Source: Candidatus Zixiibacteriota bacterium (lineage in GTDB: Bacteria > Zixibacteria > MSB-5A5 > GN15 > FEB-12). Taken from it: DNA of 45,903 nt. Location: NCBI GenBank assembly GCA_024275255.1, contig JAJRZL010000122.1, positions 1 to 45,903 on the forward strand. Direction: 5' to 3'. Under the pieces are notes generated by a model. The model was not told the DNA's origin, made no database searches, and saw only the letters and a list, made by a program, of their open reading frames with translations. The position numbers and the translations under genes were made by a program. This document shows positions 22,993-30,835 of the stretch, one piece after another. How positions within the stretch are numbered: position 1 is the first letter of the stretch; each line of letters starts with the position of its first letter.

Positions 22993-23997
22993 TTACTTAT
23001 GAACGGTTGTAATGACCAGCCAGAAGATAATCAATAATGCCATAAGAACAGAAAGCATGAGATATTGACGAGGGGTTGATGGGGTTACCTGGAAAAACTC
23101 CCGAGTTTTACTTTCCCGCTCGAATGCCTGCATCGCTTCGAGAGTAACAAGCATTTCTTTCGCACTGAGGAACCGGTCGTCTTTTTTTCTTCCAAGAAGT
23201 TTTTCAAGCAGAAGGACCGTGTCACCCGGCAGCTTATATTATGTGTATAGTTTGTCGAAATCGAGTGGTTTATGAAGTATAGCATCTTCTACGTCTGCCT
23301 GGGTGGAGCCGGAAAAAGTAGGTTTGCCGGTCAACAGTTCCCAATACACTTCACCAAGAGAATACAAGTCACTTAGTGGAGTTAACTCTCCATTGACTAT
23401 ATGTGCCGGGGTTCGATACCGGACCTCATCGAATACGATTGTTGAGGAATCGTTATCATGAATCATGTGTGTTGAAAGACCGAAATCGACCAGTTTGGCA
23501 GTACCTTCGTCGGTTATCATGATATTTGAGGGGCGGATGTTGCCGTGGATTACATTATGTTCATGAGCAAATGTCAGCCCGCGGGCAATCTGGATAGCGA
23601 GGGTTAAGAATTTATCATTGCTTATGGGACCATTTCGGATGAGCTGTTGTACTGTTTGCCCGCTGATATATTCCATAACAACAATCAGGCGGTCGCCATC
23701 TTTGGAAGCCCCATAGATATTGCCGATATTGGAATGTGACAAGTTGGATAATGTCCGTAATGTTGACAGGCATTGTGACCGAAACCCGGGGTGTGACAGC
23801 AGTTCCGCCGGGACTATCCGCAGCGCAACAATACGCTCCATAGTAGTATCCCATGCCTGATAAACCGGTCCGGTATGCCCTTCTCCTAGTTTTTCGACAA
23901 GGGTGTACTGGAGTATCTGTTTTTGAAAAAGATCATCCATACTACAATTAATAACGGAAATCCTGCCGTAAAACTTGAGTATTCTTATATTTAACAT
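22993..23997 (-). pseudogene. Hanks-type kinase-like gene with degenerate catalytic motifs, interrupted by an in-frame TAA (23239-23241); C-terminal TM anchor encoded after the stop
   Basis: The 252-aa ORF (23239-23997) ends ...ILHKPLDFDKLYT-TAA. The same frame then continues YKLPGDTVLLLEKLLGRKKDDRFLSAKEML...LMLSVLMALLIIFWLVITTVHK-TAA (stop at 22993-22995), which is kinase subdomain XI plus a TM helix. The likely start is ATG 23940. Confidence 0.6.
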
Positions 23998-24136
23998 AAC
24001 ATTATGTTGTGTTACCCGGAATATTCGATTATTTATTCCGAAAGAGAAAAATTAATGCTGGAGAATAACTCACCGAATTATATAAGTAAATGTATAATTA
24101 TTGAAATCCTGACCGAAGTTGGTTATATAACATCGT

Positions 24137-25684
24137 ATGGAAGAGCAATTCATAGAAAGTTATAAAATACTGAAAAAAATCGGTGCCGGTGGCATGGCGA
24201 AAGTTTATCTTGCCGTGCATAAAGATGTACCGAATCTCAAGGTTATCCTGAAAATTCTCAGTGATCCCCGTCTGGGGGAGCGGTTTCGACAGGAAGCTGA
24301 TAAACTGGCTCTGCTTGACGGGCATCCGAATATCTGCCGGATAAACCACTTCTTTTCTCATGGCGATGATACCGTCATTGTTATGGAGTATATCAATGGT
24401 TCCACTCTTGATGAAATACTGGAGGAAAAGGGTCGTTTATCTGTTGAGGAAACATTGAGAATTACTGATGACGTCCTTGATACTCTCAGTTTTGCTCATG
24501 AAAAAGGAGTTTCCCACCGGGATATCAAGCCGAGTAATATCATGCTTGACAGTACCGGGAAAGTAAAAATTATTGATTTCGGAATCGCGAAAGGGAAAAG
24601 CGATCCTCAATTGACCGCAGCCGGTATGGCTTGTGGTACTCCGGCATACATGGCGCCGGAACAGTTTACCCCGACCGAAGATACGGATTATACGCTGGTT
24701 GATATTTACGCGGTAGGGACGACGCTCTATAAAATGTTGACCGGTGCCTGCCCCTTTGAGGGTGACAATGAGTTCGCTATCCGTGATGCCAAATTGTTCA
24801 ACGATCCTGCCGGACCGCGAACATTGAATGCAGACATTCCGAAACCGCTTGAAAAGATAATTCTGAAATGCCTGGAAAAAGAGCCCTCGAAGCGCTACCA
24901 GTCCATACGTGAAGTACAGCAGGCATTACAGGAAATACAGCTAACGGGGAAAAAAGAATCTTCAGGTACGGATAAAACAGTCCCCGTTTCAAGCAGTGAT
25001 GGAATAGCACAAAAACCTTCAGGGAATAAAAAACCGCTCTTTATCGGTCTTGCCGTTGTTGTTGTGGCTGTTGTTATATTCGGGGTAATGAAATTTTCGT
25101 CGGGGGATAAAGTTGTTTCTTCTGATTCCGGTTCCATCTCTGACACTACCGGTAAAATGGATAATACCAATCAACCCGGACAAGCCACGACAACACCTCC
25201 TCCCGTGGGAGAAGTGTTTATTACCGTTACTCCGCGAGCTGATGCCATTTATTTCGACGATAGTCTGCTTCAGGGACGAAAAAACTCGGCATTGATAACG
25301 TGTGATACGGGACAGCATGTGTTGCGAATTAAAAATAAAAAAGCAGTCAAACGAGTTCTTGTCGATACCATACAAGTATCATCTGACAAACGCCTGGAAA
25401 AATCGTATGTTTTTACTTTTCCGGTGGTGAAAACTCAACAAAAGCCAGCAACTCCTCCCCCGAAACCGGTGCCTGATTCCGGGTATCTCGTTGCTGCTTC
25501 CATTCCCAGAGGAGCGGATGTCTTTATTGATGGTGTTCATCAACCACAGAGAACAGTCTTTCGGTTCAAGGTAAAAACAGGGAAGCATATCGTTTCCTTA
25601 CGGTTACAAGACCAGAAATACCTTGATACCGTTCTTGTGACAAAGGACGGTGAGACTCGAGTTTTTTATGAGTTCAAAGAATAA
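24137..25684 (+). CDS. Transmembrane Ser/Thr protein kinase with two extracytoplasmic PEGA-like domains
   Basis: The catalytic motifs are intact: GAGGMAKVY, VILKIL, HRDIKPSNIML, DFGIAKG, GTPAYMAPE. A TM helix (LFIGLAVVVVAVVIFGV) follows, then two repeats of the PEGA type (..PRGADVFIDG..). Confidence 0.85.
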   Translation: MEEQFIESYKILKKIGAGGMAKVYLAVHKDVPNLKVILKILSDPRLGERFRQEADKLALLDGHPNICRINHFFSHGDDTVIVMEYINGSTLDEILEEKGRLSVEETLRITDDVLDTLSFAHEKGVSHRDIKPSNIMLDSTGKVKIIDFGIAKGKSDPQLTAAGMACGTPAYMAPEQFTPTEDTDYTLVDIYAVGTTLYKMLTGACPFEGDNEFAIRDAKLFNDPAGPRTLNADIPKPLEKIILKCLEKEPSKRYQSIREVQQALQEIQLTGKKESSGTDKTVPVSSSDGIAQKPSGNKKPLFIGLAVVVVAVVIFGVMKFSSGDKVVSSDSGSISDTTGKMDNTNQPGQATTTPPPVGEVFITVTPRADAIYFDDSLLQGRKNSALITCDTGQHVLRIKNKKAVKRVLVDTIQVSSDKRLEKSYVFTFPVVKTQQKPATPPPKPVPDSGYLVAASIPRGADVFIDGVHQPQRTVFRFKVKTGKHIVSLRLQDQKYLDTVLVTKDGETRVFYEFKE

Positions 25685-25755
25685 GTCTTGTAAAAACAGC
25701 GTGAAGAATATATACATGAGGTACTAACAAATAATTTATACGAGAGGTGGAAGCA

Positions 25756-26802
25756 ATGAAGCGAAGCAGGTATTCGATTGTGCGCATTTGTGCTGTGTGT
25801 GCAGTACTGCTGTGTGTTGGTATAGGGTCAGTTTCAGCTCAGGAGTCAAATACTGTAGCTGAAAAGCTCGCCAAAGCACTCGACTTGTATAATGTCGGGG
25901 CGATAAATGATGGGTTAAAGATTGCCCAGGAATTACTGACTCGGGATGATTTAACGGCAAAGGACAGCATCGCTATTTACGAAATAATGAGCATGTTAAC
26001 GTATTCCAAGGGAGTCGATTATTTTAACACTTCTGTAGATTACTTACGTAAAATAACAAATATCGGTCCCTGTTTGATTCACCTGCCGCGGGAGTTGTGG
26101 CCCTCACAGCTACGGGACCAGTGGTTCTCGTTACAGAAGGCAAACAATACCCTGTTTTGCAGTGATGAGGCATCAAGCGGGATTAAGACAGTTGCAGTCA
26201 TGGAGTTTGATAATTACTCGATTGGAAAGTACCAGGAAGAACTGGGACCTATCGGGAAAGCGCTTGCTGATTTCTTCGAGCACGATTTCGGGAAAATAAG
26301 CGATTTGAAAGTAGTCGAGCGTGATAAAATCAATTTTGTCCTCCGGGAGCTGGAACTGCAGCAGTCGGGAAAAGTAGATCGGAGTACAGCGGTGAAAGTC
26401 GGGAAGATTCTTGGCGCTAAGTACATGATTTTCGGCAGCATTACTCAGCTTGACTACAAACATGCCCGTATGGTGGTGCGGGTTGTCGATGTTGAGACTT
26501 CCGAGATTATCGCTTCTGTTGATAAGGACGGCAAACCCGATTATGTTGCAATGGAAAAAGGTCTTGTGGAGGACCTGGCAAAAGTGCTCGATGTGAAACT
26601 CAATGACGATGTCAAAAAGCTTATCCAGGAAGGCGGCACCGAGTCAACCGATGCCATGGCGTTCTACTCAAAGGGGCTGGAGCAAATGGATAAGTACAAC
26701 TATAAAGAAGCATACGAACTGTTCAAGAAAGCTTACGAGTTGGACAGCACTTTTGTGGAAGCAAAACGGAAAATGGATATATACCGTCCGCTGGCAAGTT
26801 AA
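25756..26802 (+). CDS. Secreted TPR-like + CsgG/LpoB/TolB_N-like domain protein
   Basis: A signal peptide ends VSAQE. The core is VAVMEFDN...LKVVERDKINFVLRELELQQSG...VGKILGAKYMIFGS, with a C-terminal TPR-like hairpin ...AYELDSTFVEA. The start ATG 25756 is preceded by GAGAGG. Confidence 0.55.
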   Translation: MKRSRYSIVRICAVCAVLLCVGIGSVSAQESNTVAEKLAKALDLYNVGAINDGLKIAQELLTRDDLTAKDSIAIYEIMSMLTYSKGVDYFNTSVDYLRKITNIGPCLIHLPRELWPSQLRDQWFSLQKANNTLFCSDEASSGIKTVAVMEFDNYSIGKYQEELGPIGKALADFFEHDFGKISDLKVVERDKINFVLRELELQQSGKVDRSTAVKVGKILGAKYMIFGSITQLDYKHARMVVRVVDVETSEIIASVDKDGKPDYVAMEKGLVEDLAKVLDVKLNDDVKKLIQEGGTESTDAMAFYSKGLEQMDKYNYKEAYELFKKAYELDSTFVEAKRKMDIYRPLAS

Positions 26803-26838
26803 CATGGCGGCAATTATTCGGTGAGAATGGAGAACAAG

Positions 26839-28155
26839 ATGTATAAACGGGTACTTGTGCTATGCCTGGTATTCGTGCTTATGGTGGGTTGTTCCCAGAG
26901 TTTCTACATGCAAGGGAAGAAATACCTGGGGAAGGAACAATATAATCAGGCAATTGATGCCTTTTATAAAGAACTGCAAGTCAACCCGAAGAGTGCGGAT
27001 GCCTGGCGTGAGCTGGGGGTAACATTTTACAAACAAGGTAATCTGGTTAAGGCGGAAGATGCTTTGAAACAGGCTATCAATATAAAACAGGATAGCCGTT
27101 CGCACATGTATTTGGGGTTGATTTATGAAAAGCAGGGGATGTGGGAACAGGCGTTGCAGGCATACGGAACATCGCTCAGTCTCAAACCGCGCGGCAAAGC
27201 GGCTACGATGACACGTGCTCATATTGACCGATTGCAAACGAAAAAGATAAAGTCCGAAATTGCTAAAGCGCTGGAAAATGAATCGTCTATCAGCATTGAT
27301 ACCATTCCTGAAAATACCATTGCCGTTTCCAATTTTGACGGTTCCCTGTTACCGGAAGATAAAGCTCCGATAGCGTATGGGTTGTCTGAGTTTATTGCCG
27401 GTGATTTATCGAAAGTACGTTCCTTGAAAGTTATCGAGCGACAAAAAATCGATGTTATCATGGATGAGCTGAAACTCAGTTCGAGCAAAGCGGTTGACCC
27501 GTCAACAGCTCCCCGCATGGGGAAGCTGCTTGGGACCCGTCACCTCGTGACCGGTTCGGTGGTCGGACTGGGGGAAGACGGTATTCGGGTTGACGGTGCG
27601 ATTGTCAATACGAAAGATGGCGCGATGGTTCGGAACAAGGCAGCAGAAGGCAAGCTCCAGTCTATTTTTAAGCTCGAAAAAGATATTGTATTTGCGATTA
27701 TTGATAGTTTGGGGATTACCCTGACCCCGGAAGAACGGGATGCCATCGAAAAAGTGCCTACCGAATCCTATCTTGCTTTTTTGGCGTATTGTCGTGGTTT
27801 GCAGTATAAGCGTGATGGCTATTTCCCCGCTGCTCAGCAGGAGTTCAACAATGCCCTCGAACTTGATCCCGGTTTCACGGATGCAGGCACACAATTGCAG
27901 GCATCAATAGATATCCAGCAATCAGGAGCATCGTATTCGGAATCGCTGCGAAATTTTGAAACATTCGCACTCAGCGAAGATATTGGTGATTTAGGTAATC
28001 TTGATTTATCCGGGATGGGCATTGAAGTGAGAATCAATACCATTCTCAATAATTCCGGTGTGTTACCTTTTGGTACTACTGGCAGGTTGGCGGACCATCC
28101 ACCTGAAGCCGGTACGGGGACTGTAGTTGTGAGAGGTGATCTCGATGGGCAATAA
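26839..28155 (+). CDS. Lipoprotein with N-terminal TPR repeats + CsgG/LpoB/TolB_N-like domain (paralogue of the preceding gene)
   Basis: It has a lipobox (LMVGCS) and TPR repeats (AIDAFYKELQVNPKSADAW...). The core is IAVSNFDG...LKVIERQKIDVIMDELKLSSS...MGKLLGTRHLVTGS, followed by ALELDPGFTDA. Confidence 0.55.
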   Translation: MYKRVLVLCLVFVLMVGCSQSFYMQGKKYLGKEQYNQAIDAFYKELQVNPKSADAWRELGVTFYKQGNLVKAEDALKQAINIKQDSRSHMYLGLIYEKQGMWEQALQAYGTSLSLKPRGKAATMTRAHIDRLQTKKIKSEIAKALENESSISIDTIPENTIAVSNFDGSLLPEDKAPIAYGLSEFIAGDLSKVRSLKVIERQKIDVIMDELKLSSSKAVDPSTAPRMGKLLGTRHLVTGSVVGLGEDGIRVDGAIVNTKDGAMVRNKAAEGKLQSIFKLEKDIVFAIIDSLGITLTPEERDAIEKVPTESYLAFLAYCRGLQYKRDGYFPAAQQEFNNALELDPGFTDAGTQLQASIDIQQSGASYSESLRNFETFALSEDIGDLGNLDLSGMGIEVRINTILNNSGVLPFGTTGRLADHPPEAGTGTVVVRGDLDGQ

Positions 28156-29293
28156 AAAACAAACGATATTGATAGCGGGTGTTGTCCTTGTGTTCTTTTT
28201 GTGTGGAATGACAGTACAAGGACAGATACGTTACGGACAGCCTGCTTCCGGCGGGTTAACCTTCACTTACAGTTACTGGAAAATGGAGCAGGATACCCTC
28301 GAAACCACCCTGAATCAGTTTGTAGTACCGGTAAGTGGATTTATTCCGCTTCAGGATAACCTGGAAATGCAGCTATTTATCAGCAGCGCTTCCAACAGCA
28401 TGGATATCATCAACGACAACGTATCATTATCAGGCTTGAGTGACCTTCGGATGCAAATAAATAAGTCCTTGAAAGAAGATCGGCTGCTTCTTTCCGGAGG
28501 AATCAATCTTCCAACCGGGAAGAAAAAACTCGATGGCGAGGGTCAACTGGTCCAGTTGGCGTTGTCGCAAAACTTTCTTGATGTTCCACTTCGAAGATTG
28601 GGAGAAGGGTTTGGTTTCAACCTGTTGATTGGCGGGGCGCAATCATTTGATAATGTCAATATCGGTGGTGGTATTACATACCAATATATCGGAAGCTATG
28701 ATCCATACGAGGGAGTAGCCGATTATAACCCCGGCGATATGGTGAGTATCAACGGTGGAATCGATATTGCCGGAGAGCAGAATATTATCAGTATTGATGC
28801 TGTTTATTCACTCTACACCGATGATAAATTCACCGATACGAAAGTCTTTCGTCAGAGTCCGACTTTTGATTTCCGGTTCCGTATCACTCATCGTATGAGC
28901 AGTGGTAATATTCTGAAAGGTTCATTACGGTATGTACTGAGAGGAAATAACAAGCTCTATACTACCGATACGAGCCAGCAGGAAATAATCAGCTCTTTGC
29001 AATTATTTGGAAATGAGCTTTTTGTCTCCGGTGGATATACATTTACCGCTATGAACCAGTGGCAGGTTACCCCTTCGGCTGAACTGCACATGATTTCATC
29101 AAATGATGATGAGCTCGGTCCGACACAGCTTGAAAATTCATCAGTATTTGGTTTTGGTCTTATCGCCGAACGACCGGTAGGTGAAAAAATCAGCTTGTTT
29201 GCTGGTGGGAAATACTTCACCGGAAGTGCTGATGGCGGAAACATTGATCTGACCGGTTTACAATTCACCGGTGGGTTATCGGCAACATTTTGA
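28145..29293 (+). CDS. Predicted outer-membrane beta-barrel protein
   Basis: It has a signal peptide, alternating hydrophobic beta-strand patterning throughout and a C-terminal ...GGLSATF with terminal Phe. The start overlaps the upstream gene by 11 nt. Confidence 0.45.
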   Translation: MGNKKQTILIAGVVLVFFLCGMTVQGQIRYGQPASGGLTFTYSYWKMEQDTLETTLNQFVVPVSGFIPLQDNLEMQLFISSASNSMDIINDNVSLSGLSDLRMQINKSLKEDRLLLSGGINLPTGKKKLDGEGQLVQLALSQNFLDVPLRRLGEGFGFNLLIGGAQSFDNVNIGGGITYQYIGSYDPYEGVADYNPGDMVSINGGIDIAGEQNIISIDAVYSLYTDDKFTDTKVFRQSPTFDFRFRITHRMSSGNILKGSLRYVLRGNNKLYTTDTSQQEIISSLQLFGNELFVSGGYTFTAMNQWQVTPSAELHMISSNDDELGPTQLENSSVFGFGLIAERPVGEKISLFAGGKYFTGSADGGNIDLTGLQFTGGLSATF

Positions 29294-29310
29294 GGGGGAG
29301 GAAGAGCAAT

Positions 29311-30777
29311 ATGAAACGATATACAATTTTATTGATACTGTCAATTTTTACCGTTAGCCTGACTGCCCTGTTTATTGCCGGTTGTTCTGATACCCCGACA
29401 GAAAGTAACCTCACCGGTGGACTGGCAATGAATATTACCATCAGCTCATCATCGGACCTGATTCAACAGGTGTCGCAGTATGAGCTGGAAGCCAGCGGTG
29501 CCTTTGGTACTTTGACAACAGCATTACAAGTACAGGAAGGGATGCTGGTCGGTGAGATGGAAGTCCCTGCCGGAGATGTGCACTTTACCGCGCGGGCGTA
29601 TGATGGGCAAGGAGTACTTCTCTATGAAGGAGAAACAGATGTTACCGTGGTACCTGATAAAGTTACTCCGGTCAATATCAGCCTTGCCCCGGTTGTTTCC
29701 ATGATAAAGCTTTCCCCACGATACCTGACAGTAGAAGAATATGGAACTTTTGCGGTAACAGTGAGGATATTTAATATCCCTCATCTTAACCAGGTATCTT
29801 TTCGTTTACATTATAACTGGGATTTCGTCGCACCGGACAGCGTGGTGAGAAATCCCGATCTGGGTAATGAAGTAATACTGTATGATACGATGTTGTATTC
29901 TACCTCTGGATGGGCAATGTCATTTATCAATACCAGTGATTTTGATACACTGGTGAACAGCTCCGGTGATGTTACTCTGGCAACAGCATATTTTCAGGCA
30001 ACCCCGGCGCTTGCTGCGCAGGTACGGGCAGATACCACAGCTATTACAATCTCCGGTTTGACCATGTATGATTTCGATGGAGAGGAGTTAATTCCTGAAC
30101 TTGTGTATTATGATTCCAGTGTTGTAATAATTCAATACGATACAATACCTTATGTTCCTCCACATGAAGCTATTGTCCCGCTTGCTACCGGTAACTTTTG
30201 GACATATGTTAATTATGACAGCATCGGAGAGGTAACATCTACAAGAACACTGGAAATAACCGGGTCAGATACCATCATGTATCAAAATCACGAGCATGAA
30301 GTGTATTTCTGGAACTGGCTTGATGTGGAAGGTCAACCGAGTTCCACGTACTGGCTGGTCATGAATACTGACTCAGGAATGGTAATGGCGGGGTATATCC
30401 TTAATGGAGAAATTGATACAACAAATACCGGATTGATTTTTAAGTATCCTGCCAATGTGGGAGATACATGGGACTTTGGTGACAGGTACTTTACATGGAA
30501 TATGGAATGTGTTGATACCGCACAAGTAATAGAAACCCCTGCCGGCTCATTTCCCTGCTATGTGTACAAAAGTACTATTCAAGGTCAGAAGAGTTATCAC
30601 CTGTTTGATAATATCTTTCATCTATCCGGGTTCCAGAATTTACAGGGTGCTTCTGCAAATCAGGATGAGTTCTATTTATACTGCAGCCCCGGGATCGGGT
30701 ATATCGGAAATGGGCCAACCCCTGATGGTTCCAATAGGGCTGGGGGGCTTCTCCTGTACAAGTATTCGGTTGAATAG
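29311..30777 (+). CDS. Large lipoprotein with Ig-like and possible cohesin-like beta-sandwich domains
   Basis: It has a lipobox (LFIAGCSD). The protein is beta-rich, and the segment FAVTVRIFNIPHLNQVSFRLHYNWDFV resembles cohesin-type sandwiches. ATG 29311 is preceded by GGGGGAGG. Confidence 0.45.
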   Translation: MKRYTILLILSIFTVSLTALFIAGCSDTPTESNLTGGLAMNITISSSSDLIQQVSQYELEASGAFGTLTTALQVQEGMLVGEMEVPAGDVHFTARAYDGQGVLLYEGETDVTVVPDKVTPVNISLAPVVSMIKLSPRYLTVEEYGTFAVTVRIFNIPHLNQVSFRLHYNWDFVAPDSVVRNPDLGNEVILYDTMLYSTSGWAMSFINTSDFDTLVNSSGDVTLATAYFQATPALAAQVRADTTAITISGLTMYDFDGEELIPELVYYDSSVVIIQYDTIPYVPPHEAIVPLATGNFWTYVNYDSIGEVTSTRTLEITGSDTIMYQNHEHEVYFWNWLDVEGQPSSTYWLVMNTDSGMVMAGYILNGEIDTTNTGLIFKYPANVGDTWDFGDRYFTWNMECVDTAQVIETPAGSFPCYVYKSTIQGQKSYHLFDNIFHLSGFQNLQGASANQDEFYLYCSPGIGYIGNGPTPDGSNRAGGLLLYKYSVE

Positions 30778-30789
30778 AAAAACTGAGAT

Positions 30790-30821
30790 GTGCTGTCATA
30801 GATTCTTTTCTATGGCAGCAC
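30790..30821. terminator. Hairpin between convergent operons (possible bidirectional terminator)
   Basis: GTGCTGTCATAG (30790-30801) pairs with CTATGGCAGCAC (30810-30821) with one G-U pair and an 8-nt loop. Confidence 0.45.
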
Positions 30822-30835
30822 ACCGTCACTCTCTG

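What the first reader, a model, noticed from the sequence alone, without database searches (positions are those of the whole stretch)
22993..30777. Kinase / pseudokinase pair heading an envelope-spanning gene set of unknown function (candidate novel signalling or assembly system)
Divergent from the degenerate kinase gene, an apparently active Hanks-type kinase with one TM helix and two PEGA-like extracytoplasmic repeats (24137-25684) starts a co-directional, tightly spaced array. The junctions are gaps of 71 and 36 nt, an 11-nt overlap and a 17-nt gap. The array comprises a secreted TPR + CsgG/LpoB-like protein, a lipoprotein paralogue of it, a predicted outer-membrane beta-barrel ending in Phe, and a 488-aa lipoprotein with Ig-like and cohesin-like beta-sandwiches. 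It closes with a hairpin at 30790-30821. Every product after the kinase is predicted to be extracytoplasmic, and the set covers inner membrane, periplasm or lipoprotein layer, and outer membrane. I cannot match the combination to a described system. It recalls curli-type (CsgG) or Lpo-type envelope machineries placed under eukaryotic-like phosphosignalling.
Basis: inference. Interest (0 to 1): 0.65.

Follow-up and report, generated by a model that had tools for sequence, protein, structure and literature searches.

The report
Kinase-led envelope operon linked to T6SS
This five-gene set (a membrane Ser/Thr kinase plus four envelope proteins) is a real operon kept in over a hundred uncultured Zixibacteria-like species, and in about 70% of them it sits tail-to-tail with a type VI secretion gun, so it is probably that weapon's undescribed envelope sensor.

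Summary

**Conservation.** The order kinase, periplasmic LpoB-like/TPR protein, lipoprotein paralogue, 16-strand outer-membrane barrel, lipoprotein is kept in every related locus whose contig reaches far enough (about 60 complete operons among 80 loci). These come from Zixibacteria, Krumholzibacteria and Latescibacteria.

- The "CsgG-like" domains are LpoB/TolB-N-type domains, not curli channels.
- The pseudokinase is specific to this lineage, is broken by an in-frame stop, and is not part of the conserved unit.

**New finding.** In 31 of 44 species loci, and 16 of 23 loci found in the reverse direction, the operon lies convergent with a compact Bacteroidota-like type VI secretion operon. That operon is TssBC, Hcp, VgrG, TssEFGK plus three orphan membrane or secreted proteins. 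The window itself holds no T6SS gene.

**The fifth protein.** It has a conserved cohesin-like core and a variable C-terminus (LRR, lectin or propeller).

**Best reading (about 0.45).** A trans-envelope sensor that gates T6SS activity by Ser/Thr phosphorylation. It would be analogous to TagQRST-PpkA but built from unrelated parts, with no FHA or PP2C partner seen. This rests on gene context and is not demonstrated.

The parts
22993..23997 (-). Pseudokinase gene. It is not part of the conserved unit. The catalytic motifs are degenerate and the frame is interrupted by an in-frame TAA at 23239-23241. The C-terminal 81 codons encode the end of the kinase C-lobe plus one TM helix.
   Evidence: Pkinase 3.6e-40. 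The same-frame continuation is seen. It is 29% identical to K, with VALR and HGNIRPSN in place of the catalytic motifs. It is absent upstream of K in all related loci.
24137..25684 (+). K: an inner-membrane Hanks-type Ser/Thr kinase. It has a cytoplasmic kinase domain, one TM helix (about 296-318), a low-complexity linker and two PEGA-like periplasmic repeats.
   Evidence: Pkinase 3e-52 and PEGA 1.5e-4. The TM window is shown. K39, HRD, DFG and APE are invariant in 58 orthologues. PEGA is found in 48 of 58.
25756..26802 (+). C1: a periplasmic protein made of an N-terminal helical domain with two conserved Cys, an LpoB/TolB-N-like alpha/beta domain and a C-terminal TPR.
   Evidence: CsgG 2.5e-15 (model positions 7-105 of 210 only) and LpoB 1.9e-6. 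Type I signal peptide. AF2 model pLDDT 81.8. Foldseek best matches are LpoB (TM 0.63-0.66), TolB-N, FlgT, PelC and the CadC periplasmic domain.
26839..28155 (+). C2: a lipoprotein paralogue of C1, with N-terminal TPRs, an LpoB-like domain, a TPR and a disordered tail.
   Evidence: TPR_2 2e-19 and CsgG 1.2e-7. Lipobox LMVGC|SQS in the window, and lipobox-like motifs in 60 of 75 orthologues. 30% identity to C1 over 197 aa, E = 8e-25.
28145..29293 (+). B: an outer-membrane beta-barrel of about 16 strands, belonging to no described family. The loop between strands 5 and 6 is highly conserved and carries a helix. The mature N-terminus is conserved (QIxYGQP). The C-terminal residue is Phe.
   Evidence: AF2 pLDDT 89.6, pTM 0.83. 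Foldseek finds only generic porins, FadL and CymA, with TM at most 0.55. No Pfam hit for the window protein; OMP_b-brl is found in 8 of 52 homologues. Conserved motifs are shown.
29311..30777 (+). L: a lipoprotein with a conserved N-terminal core of about 280 aa (first domain unassigned, second cohesin-like). The C-terminal domain varies between species; in this window it is a beta-rich domain of no known family.
   Evidence: Lipobox IAGC|SD. Only residues 1 to about 290 are conserved across loci. Among 66 orthologues, LRR occurs in 24, Laminin_G_3 in 8 and Cohesin in 4. The core profile hits PDB cohesins at 7e-5.
30789..30822 (.). A 14-bp perfect hairpin between the convergent L gene and the response-regulator gene. 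It is probably a bidirectional terminator.
   Evidence: -25.3 kcal/mol, z = -5.7, and none of 200 shuffles folds as well. The consensus terminator scan does not call it because no U-tract follows.

Best explanation
The conserved unit is K-C1-C2-B-L. I read it as a trans-envelope sensory module whose output is Ser/Thr phosphorylation, and whose usual client is a Bacteroidota-like type VI secretion system.

Proposed path (inferred, not shown):
1. The outer-membrane lipoprotein L uses its species-variable C-terminal domain (LRR, lectin or propeller) as the recognition element. Its cohesin-like core docks it to the barrel B.
2. The outer-membrane lipoprotein C2 and its soluble paralogue C1 bridge the periplasm. 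Both have LpoB/TolB-N-like plus TPR modules, the same two-part layout as the CadC periplasmic sensor domain.
3. C1 and C2 contact the PEGA repeats of the kinase.
4. The kinase then phosphorylates a cytoplasmic component, so that the T6SS assembles or fires where the envelope is contacted or damaged.

The logic is that of TagQ/TagR to PpkA in Pseudomonas or RtkS to PpkA in Serratia, but with unrelated proteins.

Shown: gene content, topology signals, folds, operon conservation and linkage to the T6SS.
Inferred: every protein contact, the direction of signalling and the kinase substrate.

In this window the operon stands alone, so in this genome the client T6SS would have to lie elsewhere or have been lost.
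For: - The gene order is kept on one strand in all 80 loci (from 113 species that encode a relative of the barrel protein), as far as the contigs reach.
- The kinase catalytic residues are invariant, and PEGA is found in 48 of 58 orthologues.
- Signal peptides and lipoboxes place C1, C2, B and L outside the cytoplasm.
- A convergent T6SS array lies directly downstream in 31 of 44 species loci with at least 4 kb of flank, plus 10 loci with shorter flanks. It comprises TssK (9e-14), TssG (1e-17), TssE (2e-15), VgrG (8e-24), TssC (6e-71), Hcp (4e-21) and TssB.
- Starting instead from the T6SS gene c4, 16 of 23 metagenome loci show the operon.
- The other flank is not conserved: no gene family recurs in more than 7 of 43 loci.
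- Linkage is spread over the whole tree, including the deep Krumholzibacteria/Latescibacteria branch and the window's sister L004.
- L carries variable ligand-binding domains on a constant core.
- The C1 fold matches LpoB, TolB-N and the CadC sensor domain, not a channel.
- The T6SS operon has its own three orphan membrane or secreted proteins that could serve as its membrane complex.
- Known T6SS phosphorylation pathways use lineage-specific periplasmic or outer-membrane inputs (PMC13584744).
Against: - The window has no T6SS gene in 45.9 kb, and about 30% of loci in either direction lack the linkage.
- No FHA protein or PP2C phosphatase, the minimal partners of known T6SS phosphorylation pathways, appears in the operon. 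None is among the recurrent families of 117 ORFs upstream of K. None is detectable in the orphan T6SS proteins.
- Among 56 long relatives of the C1 module, no kinase or cyclase fusion was among the 25 commonest Pfam families listed. The only domain-fusion support for a sensor role is the match to the TIGR04510 cyclase family.
- No protein contact, transcript or phosphorylation event has been observed.
- Whether L is exposed on the cell surface is unknown.
Confidence: 0.45

Rival explanations
1. A T6SS-independent envelope sensor. The module would report envelope stress, polymers or surfaces to general physiology through the kinase. It would sit beside the T6SS only because the two travel together as one inherited or transferred island.
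For: The window and about 30% of loci have the operon without an adjacent T6SS, and the genes remain intact. No FHA or PP2C partner is present. Response regulators or histidine kinases flank it in several loci and in the window. The C1 module family is very large and widespread, with 11,633 representatives.
Against: The linkage is kept across three candidate phyla, at barrel-protein identity down to about 35%, while the opposite flank is not conserved at all. L-like paralogues also occur on the T6SS strand at the end of that operon.
Confidence: 0.25
2. A structural outer-membrane and periplasmic platform of the T6SS. C1 and C2 would form a ring under the outer membrane, as the same fold does in PelC, CsgG and the flagellar FlgT/FlgO H-ring. 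Together with barrel B and lipoprotein L, the ring would anchor the apparatus or help it cross the outer membrane. The kinase would control assembly.
For: The C1 fold matches the ring-formers FlgT, PelC, GNA1162 and the LPHT ring. FlgO matches are found in 29 of 56 relatives. This T6SS lacks TssJLM and TssNQOPR homologues. Overlapping or closely spaced genes suggest products made in fixed proportions.
Against: The T6SS operon already encodes three orphan membrane or secreted proteins (c7, c4, c5) that could be its membrane complex. A structural part would not be expected to carry a hypervariable LRR or lectin end. It would also not be expected to persist without an adjacent T6SS. A 16-strand barrel is too narrow for an Hcp tube (established dimensions, from my own knowledge).
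Confidence: 0.2
3. A curli-like or Pel-like export or assembly machine for a fibre or polysaccharide, placed under kinase control.
For: Pfam CsgG matches. The combination of TPR, a PelC-like fold and an outer-membrane barrel recalls PelB/PelC.
Against: The CsgG matches cover only model positions 7-105 and 35-103 of 210. In the sequence, only 6-7 residues lie where I recall CsgG inserting its first transmembrane hairpin (the CsgG position is from memory). Superposition on CsgG gives rmsd above 11 A. No substrate, glycosyltransferase or amyloid subunit gene is conserved nearby.
Confidence: 0.07

Closest known systems
T6SS threonine phosphorylation pathway with its envelope inputs (TagQRST-PpkA/TagE-PppA-Fha1 in Pseudomonas aeruginosa H1-T6SS; RtkS-PpkA in Serratia)
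   Same: A single-pass inner-membrane Hanks kinase with a periplasmic domain is encoded next to a T6SS. It comes together with an outer-membrane lipoprotein and a periplasmic protein. The input parts are lineage-specific (PMC13584744).
   Different: None of the envelope proteins is homologous. A dedicated outer-membrane barrel and a variable-ended lipoprotein are added. No PP2C phosphatase or FHA protein was found. The partner T6SS is Bacteroidota-like, not proteobacterial. The operon is a separate convergent unit, and in this window it is unlinked.
LpoB / TolB N-terminal domain / FlgT-FlgO / PelC / CsgG fold superfamily
   Same: The central alpha/beta domain of C1 superposes on the LpoB C-domain (TM 0.63-0.66, rmsd 2.9 A) and on TolB-N. 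Pfam CsgG, LpoB and FlgO models hit C1, C2 and their relatives.
   Different: Scores fall far below the NCBIfam cutoffs for LpoB and CsgG. CsgG transmembrane hairpins are absent. The domain is flanked by helical and TPR domains. No PBP1B or curli context is present.
CadC periplasmic sensor domain (alpha/beta subdomain plus helical bundle)
   Same: It has the same two-part layout as the C1 and C2 module. It gives the highest query-normalised TM in the Foldseek list (0.34, 3ly8). C2 gives a weak NCBIfam CadC hit.
   Different: CadC is a one-component ToxR-like regulator. Here the module is a free periplasmic protein or a lipoprotein, and the similarity is weak.
Bacteroidota T6SS-iii membrane complex TssNQOPR
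   Same: Both are sets of non-canonical envelope proteins, including a lipoprotein, that accompany a T6SS lacking TssJLM within the same superphylum (PMC10781749).
   Different: The architectures differ. TssNQOPR comprises a five-TMH protein, three bitopic proteins and a vWA lipoprotein, with no kinase, no barrel and no LpoB-like domain. No Pfam or NCBIfam match to those families was found.
Rcs-type outer-membrane lipoprotein/barrel stress sensing (RcsF with OmpA/C/F)
   Same: A lipoprotein associated with an outer-membrane barrel reports to an inner-membrane signalling protein. This comparison comes from my own knowledge and is an analogy only.
   Different: There is no homology. The Rcs output is a phosphorelay, not a Hanks kinase.

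Membership tests
Hanks-type (eukaryotic-like) Ser/Thr protein kinase, active | Gly-rich loop, beta3 Lys, HRDxKxxN catalytic loop, DFG and APE motifs | tested here: met
   K: Pkinase 3e-52. G16/G18, K39, H127-R128-D129, K131, N134, D147-F148-G149 and P174-E175 are invariant in 58 orthologues.
Hanks-type kinase (the upstream gene 22993-23997) | Catalytic Lys and Asp present, and an intact reading frame | tested here: not met
   VALR replaces VAIK and HGNIRPSN replaces HRDIKPSN. An in-frame TAA lies at 23239-23241.
T6SS threonine phosphorylation pathway (TagE/PpkA, TagG/PppA, TagH/Fha) | Kinase encoded in or beside a T6SS gene cluster | tested here: inconclusive
   Met in 31 of 44 related species loci and in 16 of 23 reciprocal loci. 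Not met in this window.
T6SS threonine phosphorylation pathway | Cognate PP2C phosphatase and FHA-domain substrate | tested here: not met
   Neither is in the operon. Neither is among the recurrent families of 117 ORFs upstream of K. Neither appears in the T6SS operon proteins scanned. Only about 10 kb of flank was visible, so a distant copy is not excluded.
T6SS threonine phosphorylation pathway | Kinase activity controls T6SS assembly or Hcp secretion | not testable with these tools
   Needs genetics or biochemistry.
CsgG curli secretion channel | Full-length CsgG fold with two transmembrane hairpins forming the channel, and a curli (csgABEF) context | tested here: not met
   The Pfam match covers positions 7-105 and 35-103 of 210. 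NCBIfam CsgG scores 16.7 bits against a cutoff of 505. The model has a 5-strand LpoB-like domain. Foldseek alignments to CsgG give rmsd above 11 A. No curli genes were seen nearby.
LpoB (PBP1B activator) | Equivalog-level sequence match, lipoprotein with a long disordered linker, and a PBP1B partner | tested here: not met
   The fold matches. However, TIGR02722 scores 26.2 and 21.8 bits against a cutoff of 110.55. C1 is not a lipoprotein. The PBP1B partner was not examined.
PEGA domain | Pfam PF08308 match above the gathering score | tested here: met
   22.1 bits against 20.8 for residues 450-514 of K. Found in 48 of 58 orthologues, best 8e-15. The first repeat (about 355-430) is seen by eye only.
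Outer-membrane beta-barrel protein | Signal peptide, closed antiparallel barrel and a C-terminal aromatic residue | tested here: met
   Signal peptide. About 16 strands at pLDDT 89.6. 296 PDB barrels match at E <= 1e-3. The protein ends in Phe.
Cohesin domain (PF00963) | Sequence or profile match to cohesin modules | tested here: inconclusive
   The family profile of the L core hits cohesins (5lxv 7e-5, 4uyp 5e-3 and others) at positions about 136-277. 4 of 66 orthologues pass Pfam at E <= 0.01. The window's own protein gives no hit. No structure was predicted, and dockerin binding is untested.
Bacteroidota T6SS-iii membrane complex (TssN/O/P/Q/R) | Homology or matching architecture to TssNQOPR | tested here: not met
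   No Pfam or NCBIfam hit for K, C1, C2, B, L or for the orphan proteins c4, c5, c7. The architectures differ from those described in PMC10781749.

The most novel reading that the evidence does not exclude
Zixibacteria and their relatives possess a distinct T6SS subtype. Its firing would be gated by a dedicated outer-membrane receptor complex made of barrel B plus lipoprotein L. The interchangeable LRR, lectin or propeller end of L would recognise particular target cells or surface polymers. The signal would cross the periplasm through LpoB-like/TPR adaptors to a Hanks kinase. That would be a programmable target-recognition input for a T6SS, built entirely from undescribed protein families.
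Probability: 0.25. Interest if true: 0.85.

Novelty: new variant of a known kind. Interest (0 to 1): 0.62.

Why it matters
How T6SS-bearing cells decide when and where to fire is understood only for a few Proteobacteria. The review read names only proteobacterial genera for the phosphorylation pathway.

Here a conserved five-protein module spans all envelope layers, ends in a Ser/Thr kinase, and is genomically tied to a non-canonical T6SS in three uncultured phyla. It offers a concrete and testable candidate for such control.

It also defines two new protein families, the barrel and the cohesin-like lipoprotein core. And it shows the widespread LpoB/TolB-N-plus-TPR module in a signalling context.

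The underlying T6SS, which has three orphan membrane or secreted proteins in place of TssJLM or TssNQOPR, is itself undescribed in the literature searched.

Tried and rejected
- **Curli or CsgG channel reading.** Rejected on model coverage, length, fold superposition and context.
- **Kinase/pseudokinase pair as a unit.** Rejected because no other locus has it, and the window's copy is degenerate and carries an in-frame stop.
- **Rosetta-stone test.** I asked whether the C1 module is fused to kinases or cyclases in other organisms. A representative search gave 11,633 relatives. But 56 long ones were CsgG/LpoB/FlgO plus TPR proteins, with no signalling domain among the 25 commonest families. Only the TIGR04510 cyclase-family match remains.
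- **Homologue search for L.** It returned just the window protein and one relative, so no structure prediction of L was attempted. A locus-derived profile was used instead.
- **Specific function for the barrel.** Foldseek of B found only generic barrels.
- **Identity of the orphan T6SS proteins.** PDB profile searches for c4, c7 and c5 found nothing, and in particular no TssM, TssL, TssJ or FHA.
- **PP2C or FHA upstream of K.** Not found among recurrent families.
- **RNA and promoter signals.** Rfam found no RNA family in the window. The promoter and terminator consensus scan did not exceed shuffled controls.
- **Literature.** Searches for the domain combination, or for T6SS in Zixibacteria, found nothing relevant.

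Full report
**1.

The ORF map shows the following genes:
- a minus-strand kinase-like gene at 23239-23997;
- K at 24137-25684;
- C1 at 25756-26802;
- C2 at 26839-28155;
- B at 28145-29293;
- L at 29311-30777.

K to L all lie on the plus strand.

A perfect 14-bp hairpin at 30789-30822 closes the array against a convergent response-regulator gene. It folds at -25.3 kcal/mol with z = -5.7.

Base composition is uniform across the region. Rfam finds nothing in the window.

**2. What each product is**

*K.* It has a Pkinase domain (3e-52), one TM segment and a PEGA domain above the Pfam cutoff. In 58 orthologues every catalytic residue is invariant, and 48 of them carry PEGA.

*C1.* It has a type I signal peptide. 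The AlphaFold2 model (pLDDT 81.8) shows an N-terminal helical domain, a five-strand alpha/beta domain and a C-terminal TPR.

Foldseek places the alpha/beta domain with the LpoB C-domain (TM 0.63-0.66, rmsd 2.9 A). Next come TolB-N, FlgT, GNA1162 and PelC, and the whole module resembles the CadC periplasmic sensor domain. CsgG aligns only with rmsd above 11 A.

The Pfam CsgG matches cover just the N-terminal half of that model. The NCBIfam CsgG and LpoB scores are far below their cutoffs. So "CsgG-like" should read "LpoB/TolB-N-like", and there is no channel.

*C2.* It is a lipoprotein (lipobox-like motifs in 60 of 75 orthologues). It has N-terminal TPRs and is a paralogue of C1: 30% identity over 197 residues, E = 8e-25.

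*B.* It has no Pfam family, but is modelled with high confidence (pLDDT 89.6, pTM 0.83) as a barrel of about 16 strands. It resembles only generic porins, FadL and CymA. Its best-conserved stretch lies between strands 5 and 6.

*L.* It is a lipoprotein. Only its first 280 or so residues are conserved between species.
- A profile of that core hits cellulosomal cohesins (7e-5).
- The C-terminal parts differ. Among 66 orthologues, 24 have LRR, 8 have a ConA-like lectin, and single ones have propellers or fn3.
- About a third are core only, at roughly 280-300 aa.

*The upstream kinase-like gene.* It is a pseudokinase. VAIK has become VALR and HRDIKPSN has become HGNIRPSN. An in-frame TAA at 23239-23241 interrupts a frame that continues to 22993 and encodes the end of the C-lobe plus a TM helix.

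**3. The operon is conserved; the pseudokinase is not**

The barrel has about 200 database relatives, almost all from Zixibacteria MAGs. A scan of one genome per species found 113 species that encode a relative of the barrel protein, and 80 loci were retrieved.

In every locus the order K-C1-C2-B-L is kept on one strand, as far as the contig reaches. About 60 loci are complete. They include Krumholzibacteria and Latescibacteria.

No locus has a second kinase upstream. The genes upstream of K are unrelated from genome to genome: no family recurs in more than 7 of 43 loci.

**4. The unexpected neighbour**

I clustered all ORFs of the loci. Seven further families recur immediately downstream of L, on the opposite strand. 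They are:
- TssK (TIGR03353, 9e-14);
- TssG (1e-17);
- a weak TssF;
- TssE/gp25 (2e-15);
- VgrG (8e-24);
- three orphan families: c7 (about 307 aa, C-terminal TM), c4 (about 735 aa, an N-terminal P-loop GTPase-like domain, then TM, then a large C-terminal domain) and c5 (about 176 aa, secreted).

Starting instead from c4 in metagenomes, the full operon reads TssB, TssC (PF17541, 6e-71), Hcp (PF17642, 4e-21), VgrG, TssE, TssF, TssG, TssK, c7, c4, c5. Then, convergent, come L, B, C2, C1 and K.

From my own knowledge, PF17541 and PF17642 are the Bacteroidales-derived models, which suggests a T6SS-iii-like system.

The counts are as follows:
- 31 of 44 species loci with at least 4 kb beyond L carry the T6SS genes, and 10 more with shorter flanks do so too;
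- 16 of 23 T6SS loci carry the kinase operon.

On a tree of C1+C2+B, linked loci are found everywhere, including the deepest branch and the window's sister L004. Unlinked loci are scattered single leaves. So the pairing looks ancestral and has been broken several times, once in the lineage of this window.

The window itself has no T6SS gene among the ORFs scanned.

**5. Mechanism**

The best-supported reading is a trans-envelope sensor that ends in Ser/Thr phosphorylation and serves this T6SS. Four points favour it:
- The kinase is the invariant first gene.
- The outer-membrane end carries a variable recognition domain on a constant core.
- The periplasmic parts have a fold and layout known from adaptor and sensor proteins.
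- The T6SS operon already has three candidate membrane-complex proteins of its own.

The logic parallels TagQ/TagR to PpkA, or RtkS to PpkA. In those systems the envelope inputs are lineage-specific (PMC13584744).

Against membership of that pathway, no FHA or PP2C partner was found. The linkage is absent in about 30% of loci and in this window. I therefore give this reading 0.45.

The rivals are:
- a T6SS-independent envelope sensor that co-travels with the T6SS (0.25);
- a structural outer-membrane or periplasmic platform of the T6SS built from ring-forming LpoB/FlgT/PelC-like domains (0.2);
- a curli-like or Pel-like exporter (0.07).

**6. Comparison and novelty**

The kinase is an ordinary active Hanks kinase, and PEGA and TPR are ordinary domains. 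B and the L core are new families.

The module is not a member of the CsgG, LpoB, TssNQOPR or TagQRST families (see the membership table).

Literature searches found no description of this operon or of a T6SS in these phyla.

I rate it a new variant of a known kind: envelope-to-kinase control of a T6SS. There is a 0.25 chance that it is a receptor-guided targeting system of a new T6SS subtype.

**7. Limits**

Everything beyond sequence, fold and gene context is inference. Genome-level co-occurrence, protein contacts, transcripts and substrates were not testable here.

Noticed in passing
L086:381-12766 (+); likewise L096, L103, L112, L124 and the minus-strand arrays downstream of L in L001, L003, L004: An apparently undescribed compact T6SS operon in Zixibacteria, Krumholzibacteria and Latescibacteria: TssB, TssC, Hcp, VgrG, TssE, F, G, K plus three orphan proteins. 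These are c7 (C-terminal TM), c4 (P-loop DO-GTPase2-like domain, then TM, then a large domain) and c5 (small, secreted). They stand where TssJLM or TssNQOPR would be, and they have no Pfam, NCBIfam or PDB match to those.
   Followed up: partly
window:23239-23241 (minus strand): An in-frame TAA splits an otherwise continuous 335-codon pseudokinase frame that ends in a TM helix at 22993. It could be a true nonsense mutation in a decaying gene or an assembly error.
   Followed up: partly
L029:11576-12490 (-) and other TssG orthologues: The TssG-like baseplate protein carries an N-terminal PASTA-like match (PF03793, 4.8e-6). That is odd for a cytoplasmic baseplate subunit.
   Followed up: no
L112:12921-16205, L115:13172-17791, L102:13389-19172 (between c5 and L): Large proteins of 1000-1900 aa are often inserted between the T6SS operon and the kinase operon. 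The two scanned (L112, L115) have beta-helix and BACON domains with a type IX secretion C-terminal sorting domain. In other loci an extra L-like lipoprotein sits there on the T6SS strand.
   Followed up: partly
L001:524-4061 (-), L003:628-4160 (-): Dockerin-bearing proteins lie just upstream of the kinase operon in some loci (Dockerin_1 in 4 of 117 upstream ORFs). L has a cohesin-like core, so a cohesin-dockerin pairing is conceivable.
   Followed up: no
window:22791-22882: A 38-nt imperfect inverted repeat (82% complementary, 16-nt spacer) lies in the gap between the ETF-QO gene and the end of the pseudokinase gene. It could be a terminator or a small mobile-element remnant.
   Followed up: no
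window:30836-32885 (-): A stand-alone response regulator (174 aa) and a PAS histidine kinase (494 aa) lie convergent with the operon. Response regulators or histidine kinases also flank the operon in several other loci (for example L018, L022, L042), but not consistently.
   Followed up: partly
window:33287-38951 (-): A cluster encoding an NrfD-multihaem cytochrome fusion, a 4Fe-4S protein, an unassigned 234-aa protein, a CCG/HdrD-like protein and a Nitro_FeMo-Co-domain protein. It looks like a Dsr/Hdr-like membrane redox module.
   Followed up: no
window:8306-10525 (+): A 739-aa ORF with no Pfam match at E <= 0.001.
   Followed up: no
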